Position numbers and translations under genes: made by a program. Shown here one piece after another: positions 27,603 through 63,360 of a stretch of 64,000 nucleotides of DNA (position 1 is the stretch's first letter; every line of letters begins with the position of its first letter). The stretch lies in the IMG/VR virus record IMGVR_UViG_2645727901_000008, one strand, 5' to 3'. The notes under the pieces were generated by a model. It searched no databases and had not been told where the DNA came from. It was given only the letters and a program-made list of their open reading frames with translations. The DNA comes from a virus (lineage: Duplodnaviria; Heunggongvirae; Uroviricota; Caudoviricetes).

Positions 27603-28370
27603 TCACCCCATAGATATCGAGGTTTCGGTAATAATACGTTTTGCGTCCAACTCCCATGCTGTGATCACGTCTGCAATCACACTTATCGGCGCTTGTGTGG
27701 CATAAATACGCTCTTCTCCAATTGGTGCCGAAACATCCGTAAATCCGACTTCTTTGGCATCCTGTATCGAGCAAATCAGCGGGACCGGGACACGAACAAG
27801 GTGAGTGGTTGCTTCAAATTGTGTACCTGTCATCAGGCGAAGCCGTGCGCCCAGCGAATTACACATCAGACTCATGGTCGCTTTATCAGTTGACATTAAC
27901 GTAACGTCATACGTCAGAATGGCCTGGGTGTATTCCAGTTCTGCTAAAGGCATTCCGGTATCCGGTTCGCAAAAACTGGCTACTTTTTTGCGGTCAATCT
28001 GCTGATCATCGTTGATATAATTGATATCCATAGTGCGTGAGATATTGACCAGGGGGAGAGCATCCCGGTTAATGTTCTGGTTTTCAGGTTTTCTCCCTTG
28101 CCCGGCATTTGCGCGACGAACTGCTTTAAGAAACTCGATCGCATTGTCGAAACGGGCCACATAGACACGCTCTGCTGGTGGACGATTCAGGAATGACGCA
28201 AAGCGTTTTTCTTCCGGCGCGGGGGCCACCAGTAAGATATCAGAAAAGATATTGCTGATTAGCGTAGCAAACGCGTTATCCACGTTTTCAAAGCCCGTGG
28301 TCTGGAATTTCCCTGTGCGTGAGGTTTGCCATTCACCTGTTCGCGCCAGGAGGGTTTTATTTGAAGTCAT
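27603..28370 (-). CDS. Hypothetical baseplate/tail protein
   Basis: 255-aa ORF in the same operon. Confidence 0.45.
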   Translation of the reverse strand: MTSNKTLLARTGEWQTSRTGKFQTTGFENVDNAFATLISNIFSDILLVAPAPEEKRFASFLNRPPAERVYVARFDNAIEFLKAVRRANAGQGRKPENQNINRDALPLVNISRTMDINYINDDQQIDRKKVASFCEPDTGMPLAELEYTQAILTYDVTLMSTDKATMSLMCNSLGARLRLMTGTQFEATTHLVRVPVPLICSIQDAKEVGFTDVSAPIGEERIYATQAPISVIADVITAWELDAKRIITETSISMG

Positions 28371-29200
28371 TCGATCACTCCGTTTTGAGTCGTATCAAAA
28401 TTCCTGGCAGGTATGCAGTAGTAAAGCGAACCAACATGCTGTGTGCCGTAGCTAAAAATACGGTGCACGTACCACCAGCGGCGGGCTACGCCGTTTACCA
28501 TCTCTTCATTCCATTCAAGAATTGATCCGACGGGGACGTTATTTGCTGCAATACGCAGAATCAGAACATCATCGGTTAAGCCATCCTGCTCACCGTCTGC
28601 GTCAATCGCATGGAAAGAGTCACGCCCGTCCGGGTTATCCAGCACATAAACGATTTCAGGTTCCTGGTAAGTCAGTTCGCGCTGGTTGTTATCCAGTTCA
28701 GTGAATGACTCTTCTCCTGTTTCGTCGCTGACTACCCCATATGTGCCAACATCTGGTCGATATAAGAGAGCCTGAAACGCGTCTGGGCTGGATTCAATAA
28801 TCAGCATCCAGTCTGCGCGGATTTGGTCGTTAAAGGCTTTATGCCCGTTATAGCGTGCTTTTAGCTGTGGAGTTGGTTCTCTGCCAGCCAGGGAAGGTGG
28901 AAGTATGGCTATATCTGATTCGGCAGCATCCGGAGTAAGGCCAGCGTTGCTATCAGCAAAATTATCATGGCTATCAGCTTTGGCGGCGGGTTGCTCTTCC
29001 AGAATGCTGAATGAATCCGAACCGGTATTGCCATGTTCCGGCGCGCCTCCTGCATTCGCTTCAATCGGCGCTGGCGTTTCTCTCTGCGTGCTGTCATGTT
29101 CTGACTCATTACTTGCCAGGTTTGCATCGTCAGCAAACCATTCGTCAAAACGGCCCATAAGCATCCTCAAAGGTCGATTTATCAGGTATCGAGGGTGCAT
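28367..29200 (-). CDS. Hypothetical acidic tail-assembly protein
   Basis: 277-aa ORF, acidic N-terminal half; first gene of the operon. Confidence 0.45.
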   Translation of the reverse strand: MHPRYLINRPLRMLMGRFDEWFADDANLASNESEHDSTQRETPAPIEANAGGAPEHGNTGSDSFSILEEQPAAKADSHDNFADSNAGLTPDAAESDIAILPPSLAGREPTPQLKARYNGHKAFNDQIRADWMLIIESSPDAFQALLYRPDVGTYGVVSDETGEESFTELDNNQRELTYQEPEIVYVLDNPDGRDSFHAIDADGEQDGLTDDVLILRIAANNVPVGSILEWNEEMVNGVARRWWYVHRIFSYGTQHVGSLYYCIPARNFDTTQNGVIE

Positions 29201-29228
29201 TGTCTGGAGATTGTGATTTCAATTCATA

Positions 29229-29273
29229 TCCCAACATGGGACTAAAGTGCTTTACATTGTCCCATATTGGGAC
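29229..29273. promoter_or_regulatory. higBA promoter with two palindromic operators (tccca-N3-tggga; gtccca-tat-tgggac)
   Basis: -35 TTTACA (29251) and -10 TACTAT (29274) with a palindrome in the 17-bp spacer. Confidence 0.5.
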
Positions 29274-29303
29274 TACTATACTTTCAGAGAGAAGGAATCT
29301 GTG

Positions 29304-29606
29304 ATGAAAATAATTTCGGTAAAAACACTAAGGGATTTCTGGGCGAAGAATCCCGATGCAGAACAGCCATTAAAGGCATGGGTTGATGAAGCAACAAAGG
29401 CTGACTGGAAAAATCCGGCTGAGATCAAAGAACAGTACCGGACAGCCAGCATCCTTAAAAACAGGCGCGTGGTGTTCAATATTAAGGGAAATGATTACAG
29501 GTTAATTGTCGCAATTGCTTATCAGCGAGGATGGATGTTCGTTAAGTTTATTGGAACACATAAGGAATACGATGCCATTGAAGCGGATACAATAGAACTG
29601 GAGTAA
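29304..29606 (+). CDS. higB: HigB-family toxin (RelE/ParE superfamily)
   Basis: MKIISVKTLRDFWAK...; about 100 aa, upstream of an XRE-HTH antitoxin (toxin-first order); ATG at 29304. Confidence 0.8.
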   Translation: MKIISVKTLRDFWAKNPDAEQPLKAWVDEATKADWKNPAEIKEQYRTASILKNRRVVFNIKGNDYRLIVAIAYQRGWMFVKFIGTHKEYDAIEADTIELE

Positions 29607-29609
29607 ATC

Positions 29610-29969
29610 ATGAACATTAAACCTATCCGTACAGAACAAGATTATGAGGCCGCACTGCGTGCGGTCGAACCGATGTTCGATAACGAACCGGAAATGAACA
29701 CACCGGAAGGCGATTTCTTTGAAGTAATGTGCCTGCTCATTGAAGAGTACGAGAAAAAGCATTACCCAATTGAGCCACCATCACCTATTGAAGCCATTAA
29801 ATTCCGTATGGAACAGCAAGGGCTGACCGTGAAGGATCTGGAACCGGCGATTGGTAAGTCAAATCGAGTTTACGAAGTGCTTAATGGGACACGAAATTTG
29901 ACGTTACCTATGATTCGTCGTTTACATGCCCAGTTTGGTATTCCACTGGAAAGTCTGGTTGGTGTTTAA
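29610..29969 (+). CDS. higA: HigA-family antitoxin (XRE helix-turn-helix)
   Basis: 119 aa; 4-bp gap after higB; C-terminal HTH-like region. Confidence 0.8.
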   Translation: MNIKPIRTEQDYEAALRAVEPMFDNEPEMNTPEGDFFEVMCLLIEEYEKKHYPIEPPSPIEAIKFRMEQQGLTVKDLEPAIGKSNRVYEVLNGTRNLTLPMIRRLHAQFGIPLESLVGV

Positions 29970-30031
29970 GTTTGGCGGTCTGGAGGACCGCTTTTTATCT
30001 AAAATAAAAATTAGAAGGTTTGATAGCTTGT

Positions 30032-30769
30032 ATGGGCAAAAATTCATCAACAGAAAACACATCTACAATTGACTCAATCAAGGGCACAATGGATGAAGCC
30101 ATAAAAGATAAATTATTTAATAAATTATTTGCATATGTGGTGGTTTCATTTTTTGTCGTTAATTGGCAAGAAATACTAATTTTGTTTAAATCTAAATATG
30201 ATATATACACAACACTGTCTATAGTATGGGTAGGGGATAAATATCAAATCCCTTATTTTGGAACCTTCATTGTATCTCCGTTTTTAGCTCACTTTGTGAT
30301 GCCGTTTATATATGGCACTATTGCGTCCATAGTGATGCCTTATATTACTATGCGTATATCAAAACTCACTGGTAGAAATTATGCGCAAATAAGATACATT
30401 GACCATGAATTTGACTCAGAAGAGAAAGCAAGAGTAAAGGCGTTGCTGAGAAACCTAAAGAAAAAAGAGGAAGAGCTTTTAAAATTAGAGGAACAAATAG
30501 AAGGTCAACAAAAAATACTGAATACAATCGAAGAAAAGAAGAGAGAGATTGAGAGTGCCAGAGTGGCTCTGTATCACGGTATAAAAGTAATTGTTGATAT
30601 ATATAAAGCAAAAGATAAAAGGATTTCCACCAAAGAAGATTTTGCCGATTTATTAAAAGCAATTGAAGAAAGTGATTTTTATAAAGACACTGGGTTGTGG
30701 GGTATTAATAAATTAATAGATGACGTGGAGACAATATATGAGTCTCAATCGACATCAAAGGACAAGTAA
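30032..30769 (+). CDS. Membrane protein with C-terminal coiled-coil (candidate abortive-infection/exclusion protein)
   Basis: AT-rich gene; hydrophobic helices followed by a Lys/Glu-rich coiled-coil; ATG at 30032. Confidence 0.55.
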   Translation: MGKNSSTENTSTIDSIKGTMDEAIKDKLFNKLFAYVVVSFFVVNWQEILILFKSKYDIYTTLSIVWVGDKYQIPYFGTFIVSPFLAHFVMPFIYGTIASIVMPYITMRISKLTGRNYAQIRYIDHEFDSEEKARVKALLRNLKKKEEELLKLEEQIEGQQKILNTIEEKKREIESARVALYHGIKVIVDIYKAKDKRISTKEDFADLLKAIEESDFYKDTGLWGINKLIDDVETIYESQSTSKDK

Positions 30770-30802
30770 TATAAAAGGCGGGATAACCGCCTTTGTTGTA
30801 AA

Positions 30803-31999
30803 TTAAGAACCTTTCTTCACATACTCCATGAACATTTTTTCAGCTTGTGCAGGTGGTGTTCCTGCCATGACCAGCGCATCAATGAACGCCTGCTTCTTCA
30901 GTGCGAACTGATCGGCCAGGCGTTGCTGAAGCTCCTTGTTTTTCTGTTTCTCACGTTGCAACGCCGCTTCTTTTGCTGCCGCCCGTTTTTTCTGTGCGTC
31001 TGACAACTTTCTGGCCTTGGTCAGTTGGTCACGTAGCTTGTCAATCTTGCCGTTGTCCTTTGCCAGTTTTGTGCTTAAAGCGGCCTGGCGCTTCTGATAG
31101 AGCCTCCATTCGCGCTTGGCAGCGTCAACGTTTGTTTTACTGTTGCGATTGCGATTAAACTCCCTCTCGTCTTCTTTTGAGAAGTGTTTGGTTGTACGGC
31201 GGCGATCGTCACCAAATGCAATTTGCGTTGCGGCCTTTTGTAACGCACGAGCAATACTCATTTGCCAACTAGCGGACTGTAACCGCGTCATTGAGTGGAT
31301 CACGTGTTTACAGGCGACGCCTTGTAGCTTAGGGTTACGAACTTTTGGATAGGCGTATTCTTTTGGCGGGGCCAGGGCAAAGTTACCCGCAGTAGCGATG
31401 TAACGATACCAGTATTGATGACGACCACAGTCACAATCGAAAGACACCCGCCCGGCGCACAGTGATTTAGTGATTTTCAGAGCTGATTTATCGTCTTCTG
31501 CGATGTCATCGACCATCTGATCCCATTCTTCAAAGCGTATCCGGACGATATGGTGCTGGTGGACGGATATATCCGATGCTTCTACGCGGATATGAATCAC
31601 GTTGTGGCGAAGAGATACGGGTGTAGCTCTTTTGATACCAGATCCGTCATCCACGGCGTTATTTGCACGCTTAATATCGATTGCCTGGCTGGATGCCACC
31701 AGCTGGGCGTATGTGATGCCAGCCGTCTTGCTGTCATATTTTTCGCGTGTTTTACTCCGTAGCTTTTCGAAACCTTTCAGGTCGTCTCGCGTGAAGAACG
31801 TGCCGCCTTTTTTCTTCCCTAACTTGAGAATATCTTCGGCGGATTTGTTCCTCAGTCTACCTGGCGTCAGCGTCCGGTGAGCTTGTCGGCGCTTACGGGT
31901 TTGTTCTTTCCTGATAAGGTCGAATAAACGCGTGAAGTCCTTAGAGGACAGGCCGTCAGTGATATAGCGCCCGTCCTGGTTTTTCAGGAAATCAGGCAT
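30803..31999 (-). CDS. SWIM-type zinc-finger protein with basic coiled-coil C-terminus
   Basis: CxC-N29-CxH pattern (FDCDCGRHQ...ACKHVIH); highly basic C-terminal region. Confidence 0.5.
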   Translation of the reverse strand: MPDFLKNQDGRYITDGLSSKDFTRLFDLIRKEQTRKRRQAHRTLTPGRLRNKSAEDILKLGKKKGGTFFTRDDLKGFEKLRSKTREKYDSKTAGITYAQLVASSQAIDIKRANNAVDDGSGIKRATPVSLRHNVIHIRVEASDISVHQHHIVRIRFEEWDQMVDDIAEDDKSALKITKSLCAGRVSFDCDCGRHQYWYRYIATAGNFALAPPKEYAYPKVRNPKLQGVACKHVIHSMTRLQSASWQMSIARALQKAATQIAFGDDRRRTTKHFSKEDEREFNRNRNSKTNVDAAKREWRLYQKRQAALSTKLAKDNGKIDKLRDQLTKARKLSDAQKKRAAAKEAALQREKQKNKELQQRLADQFALKKQAFIDALVMAGTPPAQAEKMFMEYVKKGS

Positions 32000-32321
32000 T
32001 TTCTATCTCCGGTTCCGCGCTCGCGTAATCACGGATCTTGTTCCTCAGCCATGCCACATCAGGAAGAGTTAACGTGGTCCCGGCGGGCATTTCTTCCATT
32101 TCTGACTCATGGCCCACCAGCACCCGGAATACCCAGCGCAAATCTGCATTGCCATACGCCCTGTAGGCTGCAAGGTCTGAACGATATACTTCATCAATCT
32201 TTATCGTGTACTGGAAATTATCAGAGTGATACTCCGATACCCGCTTAATCATTTCCTGGTGAAACAGCGCACGAAAAATATCGTCTTCAATGTACCTATC
32301 GTCGAGTCTGCTATAGCCCAT
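31992..32321 (-). CDS. Hypothetical protein (coupled to the SWIM gene)
   Basis: 109-aa ORF overlapping the downstream gene start by 8 nt. Confidence 0.5.
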   Translation of the reverse strand: MGYSRLDDRYIEDDIFRALFHQEMIKRVSEYHSDNFQYTIKIDEVYRSDLAAYRAYGNADLRWVFRVLVGHESEMEEMPAGTTLTLPDVAWLRNKIRDYASAEPEIENA

Positions 32322-33354: not shown

Positions 33355-33586
33355 TGCTTTGGCGTTATGACTCCCTACCGCGCTTCGGCTGAAAGTTAAT
33401 CGTCAAAAGAACCTTCAACGGGAGCCGTTAGCGCGATGGATTATGTGCAGTTTGTGATTTCCAAAATAGTGTCAACCACTTTTTGTGGATTTTATTTTTT
33501 GACCGAAATTTGGCCTAAATCATGTTGATGTAGTTAATTGTTTTTATAACATAAAACTTCATTTTGTTTACATGAAGGATGGTGTA

Positions 33587-34195
33587 GTGAAGTTAAGGGT
33601 TTTAGGGGCCGCGCTCGCGGCTATGTTGGGATGCGTATCTGCTAATACTGCCAATGCAACTGCGTTACCTGCACAATTCAGGGCAGGGCAGCAGGTTATG
33701 AATAATGCTGGTGGGGATCATTCACAAGCGGCCATTATGGACTTTTGCAAGAGGGAGGGCATTCCATTACGGCCTGTTGGAACTCAGTTTATTGGTAAAA
33801 CTGACTTTTGCGTTTTTGCATATACAGCATATCTGACGGACAAAGCTATAACAAAAACAGGTTATTCAACCAAAGATACTCTTTCCAGATTAAGTCAGGG
33901 ATGGCAGCAATTCGAAGTGTATCGCCAGCAAGGATTAGGTGAGTTATTGCAACCACTTTTTATGCTTGCGTTGGTGCCCGAGGGGCAGCAATTTTTGGTT
34001 AAAAAGGGAATGCTTCGCCAAAGTGATATTGCCGGGTTCGATAGCATGATGGCTTATGAGCGCAAACTAACCGAGCAGCGAAATAAAAAACCATCTGCTT
34101 CATGTGTGCAAAGTAAAACAGCAGAATACAGTGCAGTAGCCGGGCCTTTAGCCAAACAAATGGCAGAGCAATGGTGTAAAAAATACGGGCAATAA
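33587..34195 (+). CDS. Secreted/periplasmic protein (signal peptide)
   Basis: GTG start at 33587 gives MKLRVLGAALAAMLGCVSANTANA; no known domain. Confidence 0.55.
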   Translation: MKLRVLGAALAAMLGCVSANTANATALPAQFRAGQQVMNNAGGDHSQAAIMDFCKREGIPLRPVGTQFIGKTDFCVFAYTAYLTDKAITKTGYSTKDTLSRLSQGWQQFEVYRQQGLGELLQPLFMLALVPEGQQFLVKKGMLRQSDIAGFDSMMAYERKLTEQRNKKPSASCVQSKTAEYSAVAGPLAKQMAEQWCKKYGQ

Positions 34196-38509: not shown

Positions 38510-38688
38510 AGCCTCCTTTGACTAAGTTAAGGAGCTACCGCGTGAGGTTCCAATCTCAATGGCGGTAGCACTGACTGGGTTGGAACTACCGGCGTCAAAG
38601 GGAACCGGCCTGCCTTTCGGCAGCCCAGCCAGCACTACCATTGATCTCTGAGCTAAACGCTACGTATGGCTGTGCGATGGCATGACAC
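38510..38688 (-). ncRNA. Candidate structured leader / antisense-RNA region (c4-like position)
   Basis: Non-coding stretch with several stems (gctaccgc...gcggtagc; ggaaccggcctgcctttcggcagcc) between a terminator and the icd/ant-like genes; speculative. Confidence 0.25.
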
Positions 38689-38710
38689 AAAAAAAGACGC
38701 TTTCGGCGTC
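38689..38710 (-). terminator. Rho-independent terminator on the minus strand (gacgccgaaagcgtc + U7)
   Basis: Hairpin followed by T7 on the minus strand, downstream of ref. Confidence 0.65.
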
Positions 38711-38815
38711 TGTGTCGCCTTTGACATTATCCGGGGTTCCAATCCCGGCACCCGTTTTTCTAAGGTGCCGTAGAAATATACCCCACGATAATGCCAGGGC
38801 GCAACAGTCAGTATT

Positions 38816-61508: not shown

Positions 61509-61584
61509 TGGTGGCCCCTACCGGACTTGAACCGGTGACCGTGCGATTATGAGTCGCCAGCTCTAACCACTGAGCTAAAGGGCC
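61509..61584 (-). tRNA. tRNA with CAU anticodon (tRNA-Ile2-like; Met not excluded)
   Basis: Minus-strand GGCCCTTTAGCTCAGTGGTTAGAGC...CTCATAA...GGTTCAAGTCC...GGGGCCACCA; close to E. coli ileX as recalled; CCA encoded. Confidence 0.85.
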
Positions 61585-61594
61585 AATTAGTGTT

Positions 61595-61705
61595 TTATTT
61601 TCGACGCCTGAGATTCTTCGCGACTTGTTCTACGCCGTATACGATCACAAGTAGAAACAGCAAAAACCATCCAGGGTTCTTATCGATATACGTCCAAAAA
61701 TCCAT
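61595..61705 (-). CDS. Possible 36-aa membrane peptide
   Basis: MDFWTYIDKNPGWFLLFLLVIVYGVEQVAKNLRRRK; start overlaps upstream stop (TGATG). Confidence 0.3.
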   Translation of the reverse strand: MDFWTYIDKNPGWFLLFLLVIVYGVEQVAKNLRRRK

Positions 61706-61869
61706 CATGAGTTCCTGAACGCACCTTCAATAATCGGCAATAGCAATACCACAGCTACTGAAACTAATGCCCCATCAGCCAACACCGACATCACTTTGCT
61801 GGTGAAATCCACCAGTACGGACAAAACGAGAAAGCCAATGGCGCCCGCAATACGCGCCTTGCCAATCAT
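61705..61869 (-). CDS. Possible 54-aa membrane peptide
   Basis: MIGKARIAGAIGFLVLSVLVDF...; ATG overlaps the TerB-like stop (TAATG). Confidence 0.35.
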   Translation of the reverse strand: MIGKARIAGAIGFLVLSVLVDFTSKVMSVLADGALVSVAVVLLLPIIEGAFRNS

Positions 61870-62303
61870 TACAGATAATCTTCCACACGAAGGCCAAGAC
61901 GGCGACCAACCTCTTCCAGAACCTTATGCTCCGCAGGTTCGATTTCACCATCTGCTTCAGCGATCGTGAGCATGTTCACGAAGACTTCTTCCGCTTCTTT
62001 GGGATCGTTTTTGATATCTTCAATTTCGCGGAGGATATTCATGCGACCAACACGGAAACCAGCTTCCAGTTGCTCAGTAAAACGGGTGATTGTTGCGGTA
62101 ATTTCGTTGCCAAAATGACTTAAGCGAGGATTAGAGCGGACAAGCTGATCAAGTTTCGCTGTTTCTTCCTTTTCGATTTCACCATCTGCGGCAGACACCA
62201 GCAAACAGCCACCGATGATGGCCTCCATCAGATCGCGATTCTCAACCCTTTTCAGCTCTACTTTTGCTGAAGCGACTTTCTTACCGAAAAATTTACCGAA
62301 CAT
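61869..62303 (-). CDS. TerB-like (tellurite-resistance family) protein
   Basis: Repeated ADGEIE-type motifs (SAADGEIEKEE; AEADGEIEPAE); likely start MFGKFFGKK at 62303. Confidence 0.6.
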   Translation of the reverse strand: MFGKFFGKKVASAKVELKRVENRDLMEAIIGGCLLVSAADGEIEKEETAKLDQLVRSNPRLSHFGNEITATITRFTEQLEAGFRVGRMNILREIEDIKNDPKEAEEVFVNMLTIAEADGEIEPAEHKVLEEVGRRLGLRVEDYL

Positions 62304-62570
62304 TGGTTTTCCCTCAATAAACATGACGTATTTATTAGGTTGCGGTGCCTGGTGCCTCCAGGTGACGTTAACCAGTTAACAATTAACGCCGGGATTTTTG
62401 TCTTCACAATTAAGGAGGATTGTTTTAACTGTTCCGCGTGCGCTTAGCCGCATTCACCGCAATGGTAAGAGCACTTGGCTGGCTGGGCGGCGATGACGCC
62501 TGTACGCATTTGGTGAACCGGTTCTGCTTCCGGCATTCGCTTAATTAGCCAAATACTCTTAACGTTGCAC

Positions 62571-62657
62571 TGGCGGAGAGTAATGGAATCGAACCATCAT
62601 CGCTTGCGCAATGGGACGGTTTTCAAGACCGCTTGAGCACCATGCTCCCTACTCTCC
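62571..62657 (-). tRNA. Class-II tRNA-like gene, anticodon UGA (tRNA-Ser-like), atypical D-arm
   Basis: 7-bp acceptor stem (GGAGAGT/ACTCTCC) + G + CCA, anticodon arm GGTCTTGAAAACCG as in E. coli tRNA-Ser(UGA), T-loop TTCGATT, long variable region. Confidence 0.5.
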
Positions 62658-62793
62658 CGTTATTGTGGCGACCGGTGCTGATCTCCGGCTTGCGGTTATT
62701 TCAGACTCTCACGGGCGTTTAATTGCCCCGCCGAACAGCTCTTTTCCGCAATAGCTGCAATGTCTTTCGCGCATCAGCCTGCGCATTCACCAC

Positions 62794-62881
62794 AATGTTG
62801 AGAACACTGGTTGTCACGCTGCAACGCAACATTTATTCGTAGATTGGGATATGACCCCGTTACGCCAGTGTTCTCAACGTT
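62794..62881. repeat. Inverted repeat (aatgttgagaacactgg ... ccagtgttctcaacgtt), 16/17 match, about 55-bp spacer
   Basis: Read directly from sequence. Confidence 0.5.
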
Positions 62882-63030
62882 GTAGTGCCGGTTACGGTTC
62901 CGGCCAGGCCTCTTCCTCAACGGGTTGTTCTCCATACGGACTACCGTTTATTGGTCGTTCCTGCGGTTTATGTTGTGAAGCCAGATGCTTATCTTCTGGT
63001 TGCTTCAAAGAGCTGCACTTCATCACAACG

Positions 63031-63100
63031 GTAAGGGTACTTCGTAGGGATTCGAACCCTCTGCCAAGCACGGCGATCTCCGACGTCGCAAAATACCCTT
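63031..63100 (-). ncRNA. Truncated tRNA-like element flanked by a 10-bp inverted repeat
   Basis: Canonical T-arm (GGGTTCGAATCCC) and acceptor-like stem, D-arm-like hairpin, no anticodon arm of normal length; ggtaagggta/tacccttacc terminal inverted repeat. Confidence 0.3.
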
Positions 63101-63111
63101 ACCTGTTGCGT

Positions 63112-63187
63112 TGGTGCCGATTAACGGGATCGAACCGCTGACCATTCGCTTACAAAGCGACTGCTCTACCAACTGAGCTAAACCGGC
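63112..63187 (-). tRNA. tRNA-Thr (anticodon UGU)
   Basis: Minus-strand GCCGGTT-TA-GCTCAGTTGGTAGAGC-...TTTGTAA...GGTTCGATCC...AATCGGC-A-CCA cloverleaf. Confidence 0.85.
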
Positions 63188-63191
63188 AATT

Positions 63192-63278
63192 TGGTGGGGA
63201 GTGATGGAGTCGAACCACCCGAGTCGCAATGACAGTAGATTTACAGTCTACCCCGCTACCCCTACGGACTAACTCCCC
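63192..63278 (-). tRNA. tRNA-Tyr-like (anticodon GUA, class II)
   Basis: Acceptor GGGGAGT/ACTCCCC + A + CCA; anticodon arm TAGACTGTAAATCTACTGTCAT nearly identical to E. coli tRNA-Tyr; D-arm irregular. Confidence 0.6.
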
Positions 63279-63283
63279 TAAAG

Positions 63284-63360
63284 TGGCGATGGTGGGTGGA
63301 TTCGAACCACCGACCGACAGCTTAGAAGGCTGCTGCTCTATCCTACTGAGCTACACCATC
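63284..63360 (-). tRNA. tRNA-Arg (anticodon UCU)
   Basis: GATGGTG-TA-GCTC-AGTAGGATA-GAGC-A-GCAGC-CTTCTAA-GCTGT-CGGTC-GGTGG-TTCGAAT-CCACC-CACCATC-G-CCA. Confidence 0.85.

What the first reader, a model, noticed from the sequence alone, without database searches (positions are those of the whole stretch)
30020..30769. AT-rich membrane/coiled-coil protein next to higBA (possible single-gene abortive-infection or exclusion determinant)
A 246-aa protein with N-terminal hydrophobic helices and a long K/E-rich coiled-coil, encoded in a markedly AT-rich gene directly downstream of higBA. Composition and position point to horizontally acquired cargo.
Basis: inference. Interest (0 to 1): 0.5.

Follow-up and report, generated by a model that had tools for sequence, protein, structure and literature searches.

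The report
Uncharacterised prophage membrane protein beside higBA
A real, AT-rich accessory gene of a P1/D6-like phage-plasmid encodes a two-helix inner-membrane protein with a long cytoplasmic coiled coil; it belongs to a small, unnamed Enterobacteriaceae family carried as cargo by three kinds of temperate phage and by plasmids, which makes it a reasonable but untested candidate for a phage-exclusion gene.

Summary
It has two hydrophobic helices and a charged helix of about 85 residues, and lies 62 nt after higBA. The window is a phage D6-like (P1-type) phage-plasmid. higBA plus this gene ("X") sit on the opposite strand, splitting the tail operon 26-25|7-24-6-5, which is contiguous in P1.

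X is under purifying selection (dN/dS about 0.2; 0.07 in the membrane part). Its alleles are deeply diverged (37-100% aa) inside 84-99% identical flanks, and some D6-like plasmids have an empty slot.

Homologues are all unnamed and all in Enterobacteriaceae. They occur after diverged HigB(PF09907)-HigA pairs in Klebsiella IncFIB plasmids and another phage-plasmid lineage, after TacAT or umuDC, and alone in P2-like and lambdoid prophages and in genomic islands. Pfam, NCBIfam, PADLOC, PDB and fold searches gave no significant match.

Best reading: an autonomous, lysogen-expressed moron, probably an Abi- or Sie-type membrane exclusion protein, historically carried on a higBA cassette. The function is inferred only. 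Interest is moderate.

The parts
29304..29606 (+). higB toxin gene (PF09907 type), first gene of the opposite-strand insertion
   Evidence: Pfam HigB_toxin, E 3.3e-34. Annotated as HigB in near-identical plasmids.
29610..29969 (+). higA antitoxin gene (119 aa, C-terminal HTH_3)
   Evidence: Pfam HTH_3, E 3.8e-05. Kept whole or as a remnant upstream of X in all 20 D6-like viral contigs whose upstream DNA was available.
29974..29997 (+). Terminator-like hairpin (GGCGGTC-TGGAG-GACCGC) plus T run between higA and X; probable attenuator of read-through into X
   Evidence: Terminator scan. RNA fold of 29965-30035 gives -15.5 kcal/mol for the whole stretch, with this hairpin as its main stem. A hairpin is visible in the higA-X spacers of the Klebsiella IncFIB plasmid (L014) and the Pseudocitrobacter phage-plasmid (L019). 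The empty site in L003 keeps a single hybrid hairpin.
30013..30018 (+). AGAAGG, possible ribosome-binding site, 13 nt before the ATG
   Evidence: Read directly from the sequence. AGAAGG is present in the window, L005, L006 and L010 and differs in D6 and L004.
30032..30769 (+). X: 245-aa membrane and coiled-coil protein (phrog_8191 family)
   Evidence: ORF. phrog_8191 at E 1.5e-112. Homologues. dN/dS about 0.2. GC 0.324.
30032..30124 (+). aa 1-31: hydrophilic, variable N-terminal tail ending in the conserved DKLFNK amphipathic stretch (predicted cytoplasmic)
   Evidence: Alignments. dN/dS 1.2-1.6 on only 30 codons, so not robust. K/R counts.
30125..30187 (+). aa 32-52: transmembrane helix 1, with family-invariant Asn44 in an NW(Q/E) motif
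   Evidence: Hydropathy. Invariant columns. AF2 helix 31-53.
30188..30271 (+). aa 53-80: short loop with the conserved KSKxDI..TL motif, a short helix and a beta-hairpin (predicted periplasmic)
   Evidence: Alignment. AF2 elements H58-65, E70-73 and E77-80. The loop is 19 aa in most distant members.
30272..30352 (+). aa 81-107: transmembrane helix 2, with invariant Pro91, Gly95 and Pro103
   Evidence: Hydropathy. Invariant columns. dN/dS of the aa 31-110 membrane block is 0.07-0.08.
30353..30610 (+). aa 108-193: K/E-rich continuous helix with a heptad pattern (coiled coil, predicted cytoplasmic)
   Evidence: AF2 single helix 83-193, pLDDT up to 96. Heptad analysis. This is the most variable region among alleles.
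30611..30766 (+). aa 194-245: small C-terminal helical domain (near-invariant Tyr191 just before it; D203/F204 conserved among close relatives)
   Evidence: AF2 helices 201-240. Alignments. Only a sub-threshold DUF6947 match, E 0.005.
30774..30794 (.). Hairpin AAAGGCGG-GATAA-CCGCCTTT shared by convergent X and gene 25 (bidirectional terminator-like); right boundary of the X cassette
   Evidence: Terminator scan. Fold z-scores -4.2 and -4.1 on the two strands. Other alleles carry a different hairpin here.
30803..31999 (-). Homologue of P1 tail gene 25 (right flank of the insertion)
   Evidence: Annotated in D6 as similar to P1 gene 25. tblastn gives 57% identity to P1 gp25.
28367..29158 (-). 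Homologue of P1 tail gene 7 (left flank of the insertion)
   Evidence: Annotated in D6 as similar to P1 gene 7. In P1, gene 7 follows gene 25 after 3 bp.

Best explanation
X is an autonomous accessory ('moron') gene of a D6-like P1-type phage-plasmid.

What it encodes: a small inner-membrane protein. Two transmembrane helices are tightly conserved and probably form an N-in/C-in hairpin. They are followed by a cytoplasmic coiled coil of about 85 residues and a C-terminal helical domain of about 50 residues, both of which vary between alleles.

How it is probably expressed: in the prophage or plasmid state, by attenuated read-through from the constitutively active higBA operon on which it historically travels (inferred).

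Most likely role: exclusion of other phages at the inner membrane. My preferred mechanism is an Abi-like single-protein system. In it, the variable cytoplasmic part senses an infection cue, the coiled coil drives oligomerisation, and the conserved membrane hairpin (with polar Asn and Pro-Gly-Pro residues) compromises the membrane. Blocking genome entry (Sie-type) is the close second.

Shown: the gene is real and constrained; it is accessory and exchanged by recombination; the membrane and coiled-coil architecture; its moron-like placement in three temperate phage types; its independence from intact HigBA.

Inferred: topology, mode of expression, oligomerisation, and the exclusion function itself.
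For: Real, constrained gene: dN/dS is 0.20-0.27 overall and 0.07-0.08 in the membrane block. Full-length homologues have invariant N44, P91, G95 and P103.

Accessory and exchanged:
- The slot is empty in L003 and in the rows that cover about 87% of the query over a span about 800 bp shorter.
- Alleles are 99, 79, 63, 39 and 37% identical inside 84-99% identical flanks.
- dS of X is 0.57-2.0, against 0.06-0.13 for adjacent gene 25 in two of the three comparisons.
- P1 has 26-25-7 contiguous, with no insertion.

Moron-like placement, opposite to or outside lytic operons:
- P1-like tail operon.
- P2-like prophage, between gpV and gpS/R.
- The end of a P2-like prophage, after ogr.
- Lambdoid prophage, between the replication and nin/Q regions.

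Defence-rich neighbourhoods:
- K. grimontii island with HicAB, Cap4 nuclease and TIR.
- A KAP/STAND NTPase next door in Buttiauxella.
- OLD-like AAA_15/DUF4435 genes in the same prophage.
- A DUF4145 gene and a serine recombinase beside a distant homologue.

Independence from HigBA:
- X is intact where higB was replaced by RelE/HigA2 or TacAT and higA is truncated.
- X follows umuDC.
- X occurs alone.

Architecture.

Family-wide AT-richness, typical of horizontally moving cargo: GC 0.29-0.42 against 0.44-0.57 in the flanks.
Against: - There is no functional test of any family member, and every database name is 'hypothetical' or 'coiled-coil domain-containing'.
- No match to PADLOC defence models except scattered coiled-coil noise. 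No match to Pfam SieB or any holin/Abi family.
- hhalign against P22 SieB gives 1.3% probability.
- Fold searches are non-significant, with best E about 1.
- X is interrupted by IS903B in many Klebsiella IncFIB plasmids and is missing from roughly a fifth of D6-like plasmids, so it is dispensable.
- No convincing own promoter was found. Promoter-like hits are at chance level, and a terminator-like hairpin precedes the gene, so expression in lysogens is unproven.
- Positive-inside counts support the N-in/C-in topology only modestly.
- Choosing Abi over Sie rests solely on which parts are conserved and which vary.
Confidence: 0.45

Rival explanations
1. X is a functional third component of a tripartite HigB(PF09907)-HigA-X module. 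For example, it could be a membrane-anchored sensor, tether or second effector that modulates HigB/HigA activity in plasmid addiction or TA-based phage defence.
For: - The order higB-higA-hairpin-X recurs in three replicon types: D6-like phage-plasmids, K. pneumoniae IncFIB plasmids and a Pseudocitrobacter 97-kb phage-plasmid.
- It recurs even though the HigB and HigA proteins are only 26-29% identical between the first two types, while X is 42% identical.
- HigA remnants still precede X where another TA has invaded.
Against: - X is intact and constrained where higB is gone and higA is truncated.
- X occurs with no TA at all in P2-like and lambdoid prophages and in chromosomal sites, and after umuDC.
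- higBA persists without X.
- The HigBA and X relationships are incongruent. L019 versus Kp HigB/HigA is 54% identical but X only 28%; window versus Kp HigB/HigA is 26-29% but X is 42%.
- A terminator-like hairpin separates higA from X.
Confidence: 0.15
2. X is a lysogenic-conversion or plasmid-fitness factor unrelated to phage exclusion. It could be an envelope or stress-related membrane protein, a colonisation factor, or a membrane toxin contributing to post-segregational killing.
For: - It is accessory and sits on plasmids and prophages of gut Enterobacteriaceae.
- It co-localises with addiction modules (HigBA, RelE/HigA, TacAT).
- It has no similarity to known defence proteins.
- It also sits alone between housekeeping genes in Enterobacter and next to an adhesin-type gene in Kosakonia.
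Against: - Deep allelic diversity exchanged by recombination inside near-identical flanks, and placement in phage moron slots and defence-rich islands, fit conflict-related genes better.
- No cognate antitoxin-like partner is conserved next to solo copies. Upstream ORFs are unrelated to each other.
Confidence: 0.25
3. X has a role in the phage's own lytic cycle, as a tail/baseplate assembly factor, holin/antiholin or injection helper, because it lies among tail genes.
For: It is located between tail genes 7 and 25. It is a small membrane protein, as holins are.
Against: - It is on the opposite strand to the late operon.
- It is absent from P1, where 25 and 7 are 3 bp apart, and from some complete D6-like plasmids.
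- It is present in non-phage IncFIB plasmids and at chromosomal sites.
- No holin or structural Pfam/PHROG annotation was found.
Confidence: 0.03

Closest known systems
SieB of phages P22 and lambda (prophage-expressed, membrane-located abortive exclusion protein)
   Same: A single gene expressed from the prophage, on the strand opposite to its neighbours (P22 annotation). It has N-terminal hydrophobic helices followed by a cytoplasmic C-terminal part (sequence). The role I propose for X is the same kind, exclusion of other phages.
   Different: There is no detectable homology: no Pfam SieB hit, and hhalign of the family profile against P22 SieB gives 1.3% probability. X is longer (245 vs 192 aa), has a long coiled coil, and has different conserved motifs.
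Injection-blocking inner-membrane Sie proteins (P22 SieA, PMC10883804; HK97 gp15 and T4 Imm from my own knowledge)
   Same: They are small inner-membrane proteins made by prophages. From memory, HK97 gp15 is likewise a moron inside the tail-gene region.
   Different: No sequence relation was found in any library. In X the variable parts are the predicted cytoplasmic coiled coil and C-terminus, whereas the membrane/periplasmic part is the conserved one. That is not what a protein recognising diverse incoming phage ejection proteins in the periplasm would be expected to show.
Transmembrane effector modules of abortive-infection systems (2TM effectors of CBASS/Pycsar/retrons; S. aureus prophage PdpSau, PMC10127798)
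   Same: An N-terminal membrane segment is joined to a cytoplasmic part. The proposed logic of sensing in the cytoplasm and damaging the membrane is the same. PdpSau is also a single membrane-anchored prophage protein.
   Different: X has no nucleotide-binding or other recognisable sensor domain and no partner signal-generating enzyme. Only 1 of 22 family members gave a weak hit (E 4e-4) to a PADLOC '2TM effector' model, and the window protein gave none.
Toxin-antitoxin-chaperone systems (HigB-HigA-SecB-like 'HigBAC'; bioRxiv 10.1101/2024.02.24.581848)
   Same: A third gene follows a higBA pair, and the whole has been implicated in phage defence.
   Different: X is a membrane/coiled-coil protein with no SecB-like domain. 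It persists without HigBA. The HigB here belongs to the PF09907 family.
Caulobacter HigX (membrane-associated factor encoded just downstream of higBA; PMC13384398)
   Same: It is a membrane-associated protein encoded immediately downstream of higBA. It was found to act independently of the TA pair, and its synteny with higBA is not universal (abstract).
   Different: HigX is a DNA-binding transcription factor ancestral to alpha-proteobacteria. X has no HTH, is mobile cargo, and is restricted to Enterobacteriaceae. Homology between the two was not tested directly.

Membership tests
phrog_8191 (PHROGs, unknown function) | Full-length match to the family profile | tested here: met
   E 1.5e-112, residues 1-245 against profile positions 1-241 of 242. 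The D6 orf73 and L004 alleles also match, at E 6e-115 and 4.7e-103.
SieB superinfection-exclusion family (P22/lambda) | Sequence or profile similarity to SieB | tested here: not met
   No Pfam SieB hit for any of 22 family members at E<=1. hhalign of the family profile against P22 SieB gives probability 1.3%.
Known anti-phage defence systems (PADLOC-DB v2.0) | Match of the protein to any defence-system component model | tested here: not met
   No hits for the window protein or the two other D6-slot alleles at E<=1. Among 22 members there are only scattered weak hits, and all those inspected lie in the coiled-coil segment (JetC, LmuB, PbeC, DruC).
Toxin-antitoxin-chaperone (TAC) third component | SecB-like chaperone domain encoded after the antitoxin | tested here: not met
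   No SecB or other chaperone domain in Pfam or NCBIfam; the ClpB hit at E 0.004 covers only coiled coil. Predicted membrane protein.
Obligate tripartite HigB-HigA-X module | The three genes always co-occur and co-evolve | tested here: not met
   The trio is seen in three replicon types. But X occurs without HigBA, HigBA occurs without X, X is intact beside degraded HigA, and identities are incongruent.
Holins / phage lysis membrane proteins | Match to a holin family, and location in a lysis cassette | tested here: not met
   No holin family in Pfam or PHROGs. The neighbours are a TA pair and tail genes, not an endolysin.
Two-TM tetrameric cation-channel fold (NaK/KcsA-like) | Significant structural match including pore helix and selectivity filter | tested here: not met
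   The top Foldseek PDB hits are NaK channels, but at E 1.2-9 with TM-scores 0.13-0.32. No filter-like motif is conserved across the family. The model's pLDDT is only 73.7.
Prophage 'moron' (accessory gene inserted between lytic-cycle genes, with own terminator, different composition) | Absent from related phages at the same junction; deviant base composition; flanked by terminator; orientation independent of the surrounding operon | tested here: met
   The 25|7 junction is closed in P1. The slot is empty in L003. GC is 0.32 against 0.47. Hairpins lie on both sides. The gene is on the strand opposite to the tail genes. Expression from the prophage was not tested.
Integral inner-membrane protein, N-in/C-in hairpin | Experimentally or algorithmically established topology | tested here: inconclusive
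   Two hydrophobic segments. K/R density is 0.22 per residue (N flank), 0.12 (loop) and 0.15 (C flank, with few acidic residues) across 22 members. No dedicated topology predictor or fusion data were available.

The most novel reading that the evidence does not exclude
X founds a previously unrecognised family of single-protein, membrane-anchored phage-exclusion determinants. The family is shared as exchangeable cargo by P1-like, P2-like and lambdoid temperate phages and by large plasmids of Enterobacteriaceae. A conserved two-helix membrane effector is coupled through a coiled coil to a rapidly exchanged cytoplasmic recognition end. In the bolder version, the ancestral HigB(PF09907)-HigA-X cassette is a membrane-coupled tripartite defence module.
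Probability: 0.35. Interest if true: 0.6.

Novelty: new variant of a known kind. Interest (0 to 1): 0.45.

Why it matters
Phage-plasmids of the P1/D6 type are common in clinical and livestock E. coli and Salmonella, and their cargo slots influence which phages, including therapeutic ones, can infect their hosts.

This gene family has no name, no domain assignment and no structural relative. Yet it is kept under purifying selection and shuffled among three temperate-phage lineages and Klebsiella plasmids. That pattern has repeatedly pointed to new anti-phage functions.

A positive phage-challenge result would add a new single-gene membrane exclusion family. It would also identify a new variable hotspot (the 25|7 junction) in P1-like elements. 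A negative result would point instead to an envelope or addiction-related role tied to HigBA cassettes.

Tried and rejected
1. Family and domain searches. Pfam, NCBIfam and PADLOC gave no meaningful hit for the window protein, its alleles or 22 family members. The sub-threshold hits (DUF6947, ClpB, JetC, LmuB) fall in coiled-coil or C-terminal helices and are inconsistent between members.

2. Solved structures and folds. A profile search of PDB sequences returned only coiled-coil noise at E>=0.014. Foldseek against PDB and BFVD gave a best E of about 1. The NaK-channel look-alike was rejected as non-significant. The afdb50 library was unavailable.

3. Homology to P22 SieB was rejected.

4. Domain fusions in ten longer distant homologues showed nothing informative.

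5. A conserved partner gene next to solo copies was rejected, because the upstream ORFs are unrelated to each other.

6. An own promoter inside the 3' half of higA was considered. The only sigma-70-like hit is 29886-29914, and the hit count is at chance level. It was dropped as a general feature because the commonest D6-like variant keeps only the 5' half of higA.

7. GTDB species-representative genomes. The close-family patterns found nothing. A distant-subfamily alignment found two chromosomal loci. The full 22-sequence alignment was too divergent for that tool.

8. Literature. Searches for HigBAC or a third gene, P1-like hotspots, and D6 plasmid prophages found no paper that mentions this gene.

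9. Rfam found no RNA family in or near the gene.

10. The first AF2 run, with 13 close sequences, gave a poor model with pLDDT 62.
Full report
**1. What is in the sequence**

The ORF list shows a + strand ORF at 30020..30769, 249 aa from a TTG. The ATG at 30032 gives 245 aa. This is the start annotated in near-identical plasmids, and the point from which all alleles align (MS/GK-D/N-SS...).

The gene has GC 0.324 and GC3 0.297. The whole window has GC 0.468, and higB, higA, gene 7 and gene 25 have 0.42-0.50.

Hydropathy gives two hydrophobic segments, at about aa 32-52 and 76-107. After them comes a region that is 42% K/R/D/E. It shows a heptad pattern held in one frame over about aa 129-177.

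An AlphaFold2 model built on a 22-sequence family alignment has mean pLDDT 73.7. It shows helices 31-53 and 58-65, a short hairpin at 70-80, one uninterrupted helix 83-193 with pLDDT above 90 around residues 130-170, and C-terminal helices 201-240.

Upstream lie HigB (PF09907, E 3.3e-34) and an HTH antitoxin. A terminator-like hairpin at 29974-29992 precedes the gene, and another at 30774-30794 separates it from the convergent downstream gene.

**2. What the element is and where the gene sits**

The 6-kb neighbourhood is 96.6% identical to Escherichia phage D6. It is up to 98.9% identical to about 92-kb non-mobilizable plasmids of E. coli and Salmonella, which are P1-type phage-plasmids.

D6's annotation identifies the flanking genes as homologues of P1 tail and baseplate genes 5, 6, 24 and 7 (left) and 25, 26 and mat (right). 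In P1 itself, 26-25-7-24-6-5 is one contiguous late operon, with 3 bp between genes 25 and 7. In D6-like elements that junction is split by an opposite-strand insertion consisting of a toxin-antitoxin pair plus the gene under study, here called X.

**3. The slot is variable and X is exchanged as old alleles**

- In one D6-like plasmid higA is followed directly by gene 25 (L003). Several other rows cover about 87% of the query over a span about 800 bp shorter, which fits the same empty arrangement.
- The empty site carries a single hairpin. It combines the left part of the window's first hairpin with the T-tail of its second. The cassette boundaries are therefore the two hairpins.
- Other plasmids carry X alleles that are 99, 79, 63, 39 or 37% identical in protein. 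The flanks remain 84-99% identical in DNA.
- Synonymous divergence of X is 0.57-2.0, against 0.06-0.13 for adjacent gene 25 in two of the three plasmid pairs compared. In the third pair (L006) the flanks are themselves diverged. The alleles are thus old lineages swapped in by recombination, not fast local evolution.
- dN/dS is 0.20-0.27 overall and 0.07-0.08 in the membrane block. It is higher in the coiled coil. It is 1.2-1.6 in the 30-codon N-terminal tail, which is too short to be conclusive.
- In PLSDB, 125 records hold the flanking region. About 99 Escherichia, Salmonella and Shigella records hold an X homologue. This suggests roughly four fifths are occupied, but the two sets were not cross-checked.
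- The window's own allele is rare. It occurs in 4 PLSDB records at 90% protein identity or more, and in 3 of 5,426 complete E. coli genomes, always on plasmids.

**4. The family**

X matches phrog_8191 (unknown function) at E 1.5e-112. Word-seeded searches of 5.8 billion proteins find about 20 clusters. An exhaustive profile search of 1.84 billion representatives finds 81 at E<=1e-3 and 26 at E<=1e-10.

The 12 named members seen (E. coli, Salmonella, Klebsiella, Citrobacter, Enterobacter, Pseudocitrobacter, Lelliottia) are Enterobacteriaceae. Two further loci are from Buttiauxella and Kosakonia, also Enterobacterales. All are labelled 'hypothetical' or 'coiled-coil domain-containing'.

The 22-sequence alignment shows a conserved N-terminal module. 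It reads D/E-R/K-L-x-N-x-x-Y-x-Y...S...N-W-Q/E-x-I...K-S-K-x-D-I...T-L, then L-P-x3-G-x7-P. N44, P91, G95 and P103 are invariant. A variable coiled coil and a loosely conserved C-terminal end follow. All homologous genes examined are AT-rich relative to their surroundings, with GC 0.29-0.42 against 0.44-0.57.

**5. Genomic contexts**

(a) D6-like phage-plasmids show two arrangements.
- One is higB(PF09907)-higA-X, as in the window.
- The other is RelE(PF05015)-HigA2 followed by an orphan copy of the 119-aa higA, complete or reduced to its 5' half, and then X.

(b) K. pneumoniae IncFIB plasmids of 150-260 kb carry higB(PF09907)-higA-hairpin-X among IS elements. X is often split by IS903B.
- HigB and HigA there are only 26% and 29% identical to the window's, whereas X is 42% identical.

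(c) A Pseudocitrobacter 97-kb phage-plasmid has higB(PF09907)-HTH-X in a different structural-gene slot.
- Its HigB and HigA are each 54% identical to the Klebsiella ones, but X is only 28% identical.

(d) Sibling Citrobacter/Salmonella phage-plasmids have TacA-TacT in that slot, then a 68-aa remnant of HigA, then X.

(e) The K. grimontii chromosome has umuDC-X followed by homologues of genes 25 and 26 (81-82% identical). This lies in an island with an integrase, HicAB, a Cap4 nuclease gene and a TIR gene.

(f) Klebsiella P2-like prophages carry X alone, on the strand opposite to the tail genes, between gpV and gpS/R.

(g) In Lelliottia, X follows ogr at the end of a degraded P2-like prophage that also carries OLD-like AAA_15/DUF4435 genes.

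(h) A lambdoid prophage carries X on the opposite strand, between the replication genes and the nin/Q region.

(i) Chromosomal or island copies lie:
- beside a KAP/STAND NTPase (Buttiauxella) and a haemagglutinin-repeat gene (Kosakonia);
- near H-NS and DUF4942 genes;
- between housekeeping genes in Enterobacter.
A weak homologue sits 12 bp after a DUF4145 gene and next to a small serine recombinase.

**6. What this implies**

X behaves as a classic moron. It is absent from the related phage P1 at that junction. It has deviant composition and terminator-like hairpins on both sides. Its orientation is independent of the surrounding lytic operon. It recurs as cargo in three unrelated temperate-phage types as well as in plasmids and islands.

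Its linkage to PF09907-type HigBA is real and probably ancestral for the plasmid and phage-plasmid copies. The trio occurs in three replicon types, and HigA remnants persist where other TA pairs have invaded.

X nevertheless does not depend on HigBA, for three reasons:
- It stays intact and constrained beside a truncated HigA.
- It occurs with other upstream operons or none.
- The HigBA and X similarities are incongruent between replicons.

The simplest link is transcriptional. X sits co-oriented at the 3' end of an operon that is active in the prophage or plasmid state, behind a hairpin that would attenuate read-through. This is inferred. No significant independent promoter was detected.

**7. 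Mechanism**

The tightly conserved part is the membrane hairpin, with a polar Asn in helix 1 and Pro-x3-Gly-x7-Pro in helix 2. The parts that differ between alleles are the N-terminal tail, the coiled coil and the C-terminal end, all predicted to be cytoplasmic. The positive-inside evidence for that topology is only modest.

That distribution is what one expects of a conserved membrane effector joined to a variable cytoplasmic recognition part. It resembles the transmembrane effectors of abortive-infection systems and SieB-type exclusion more than proteins that meet incoming phage components in the periplasm.

I therefore favour a single-protein, Abi-like exclusion mechanism. The cytoplasmic end senses infection, the coiled coil drives oligomerisation, and the membrane is compromised. 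A Sie-type block of genome entry is second.

My confidence is 0.45 that X is an anti-phage exclusion determinant of either type. It is about 0.9 that X is a genuine accessory membrane protein gene.

Rivals:
- A functional third partner of HigBA (0.15).
- A phage-independent envelope, fitness or addiction function (0.25).
- A role in the phage's own morphogenesis or lysis (0.03), which is largely excluded by presence/absence and strand.

**8. Comparison with known systems**

No membership in any characterised family could be shown.
- Pfam, NCBIfam and PADLOC gave no consistent hit.
- The PDB sequence profile search and the Foldseek searches of PDB and BFVD were non-significant.
- hhalign against P22 SieB gave 1.3% probability.
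- Ten longer distant homologues carry no informative fused domains.

Functionally the nearest analogues are:
- SieB of P22 and lambda.
- SieA, HK97 gp15 and T4 Imm; the last two are from my own knowledge.
- 2TM effectors of CBASS-type systems.
- The staphylococcal prophage protein PdpSau (PMC10127798).

For the higBA adjacency, the nearest analogues are the SecB-type 'HigBAC' TAC systems (bioRxiv 10.1101/2024.02.24.581848) and Caulobacter HigX, a membrane-associated factor downstream of higBA that acts independently of it (PMC13384398). X shares architecture or logic with these, but no demonstrable ancestry.

Papers on D6-like plasmids mention higBA as an addiction system and do not discuss this gene (PMC6799933).

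**9. Verdict**

Its interpretation, acquired cargo that may be an exclusion or Abi gene, is plausible and is strengthened by the comparative data, but it remains unproven.

The added findings are:
- the family's distribution across P1-, P2- and lambda-type prophages and Klebsiella plasmids;
- the ancestral but dispensable link to PF09907 HigBA cassettes;
- the hairpin-bounded cassette structure;
- the exchange of deeply diverged alleles.

This is a new variant of a known kind, a prophage moron encoding a membrane protein likely involved in exclusion. It is of moderate interest and is directly testable by a simple phage-challenge experiment.

Noticed in passing
window 28367-32321; L030 (phage P1): The P1 late tail operon 26-25-7-24-6-5 is contiguous in P1, with a 3-bp gap between genes 25 and 7. 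In D6-like phage-plasmids it is split at that junction by an opposite-strand cargo block. How gene 7 and the genes after it are then transcribed, given the hairpin at 30774-30794, is not obvious.
   Followed up: partly
L002:4822-5949 (phage D6), L005, L031-L052; L023:3710-3916: In D6 and most D6-like elements a RelE(PF05015)/HigA2 pair has replaced higB(PF09907). This leaves an orphan 119-aa higA, either complete or only its 5' half. In Citrobacter/Salmonella phage-plasmids TacAT did the same, leaving a 68-aa HigA remnant. It looks like serial TA-cassette replacement at one site.
   Followed up: partly
L015:6959-8386 and about 40 K. pneumoniae IncFIB plasmids: The X homologue is interrupted by IS903B after about codon 130 in many Klebsiella IncFIB plasmids. 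tblastn covers only residues 15-130, with two places per record. This is probably one clonal insertion event.
   Followed up: partly
L010-L013 (E. coli about 93-97 kb plasmids): The same slot and its neighbourhood hold further cargo in other D6-like plasmids. A YjaZ-like gene (PF27200) follows X. Extra HigB-like/HTH or Gp49/HTH pairs lie between gene 26 and mat.
   Followed up: no
L007 (K. grimontii CP067380, 4.72-4.74 Mb): A chromosomal island contains umuDC, an X homologue and homologues of P1-type genes 25 and 26 (81-82% identical to the window's). Beside them are HicAB, a Cap4-nuclease gene, a TIR-domain gene and an integrase. This is a P1-like fragment embedded in a defence-type island.
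   Followed up: partly
window 30803-31999 (-): The gene-25 tail protein carries a conserved Cys/His cluster (CDCGRHQYWYRY...CKH) that resembles a small zinc-binding motif. No Pfam family matched.
   Followed up: no
window 38558-38768 (-) and 61512-63360 (-): Rfam finds the P1-type C4 antisense RNA (38558-38645) next to an isrK-like sRNA (38690-38768). It also finds four tRNA genes at 61.5-63.4 kb.
   Followed up: no
L016:5833-6576 (-) (Klebsiella P2-like prophage): A 247-aa ORF rich in CxxC/His motifs, with no Pfam hit on record, lies between the X homologue and gpS on the tail-gene strand. It may be a second cargo gene in that P2-like S/V slot.
   Followed up: no
L057:4309-6528: A distant X homologue (P0051, profile E 5e-7) starts 12 bp after a DUF4145 gene and lies next to a small serine recombinase. 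This suggests a two-gene arrangement in a mobile defence-type locus.
   Followed up: no
window 33572-34195 (+): A 207-aa ORF with an N-terminal signal-like hydrophobic segment lies beyond mat, near where D6 annotates a simB-like superimmunity gene. It was not analysed.
   Followed up: no
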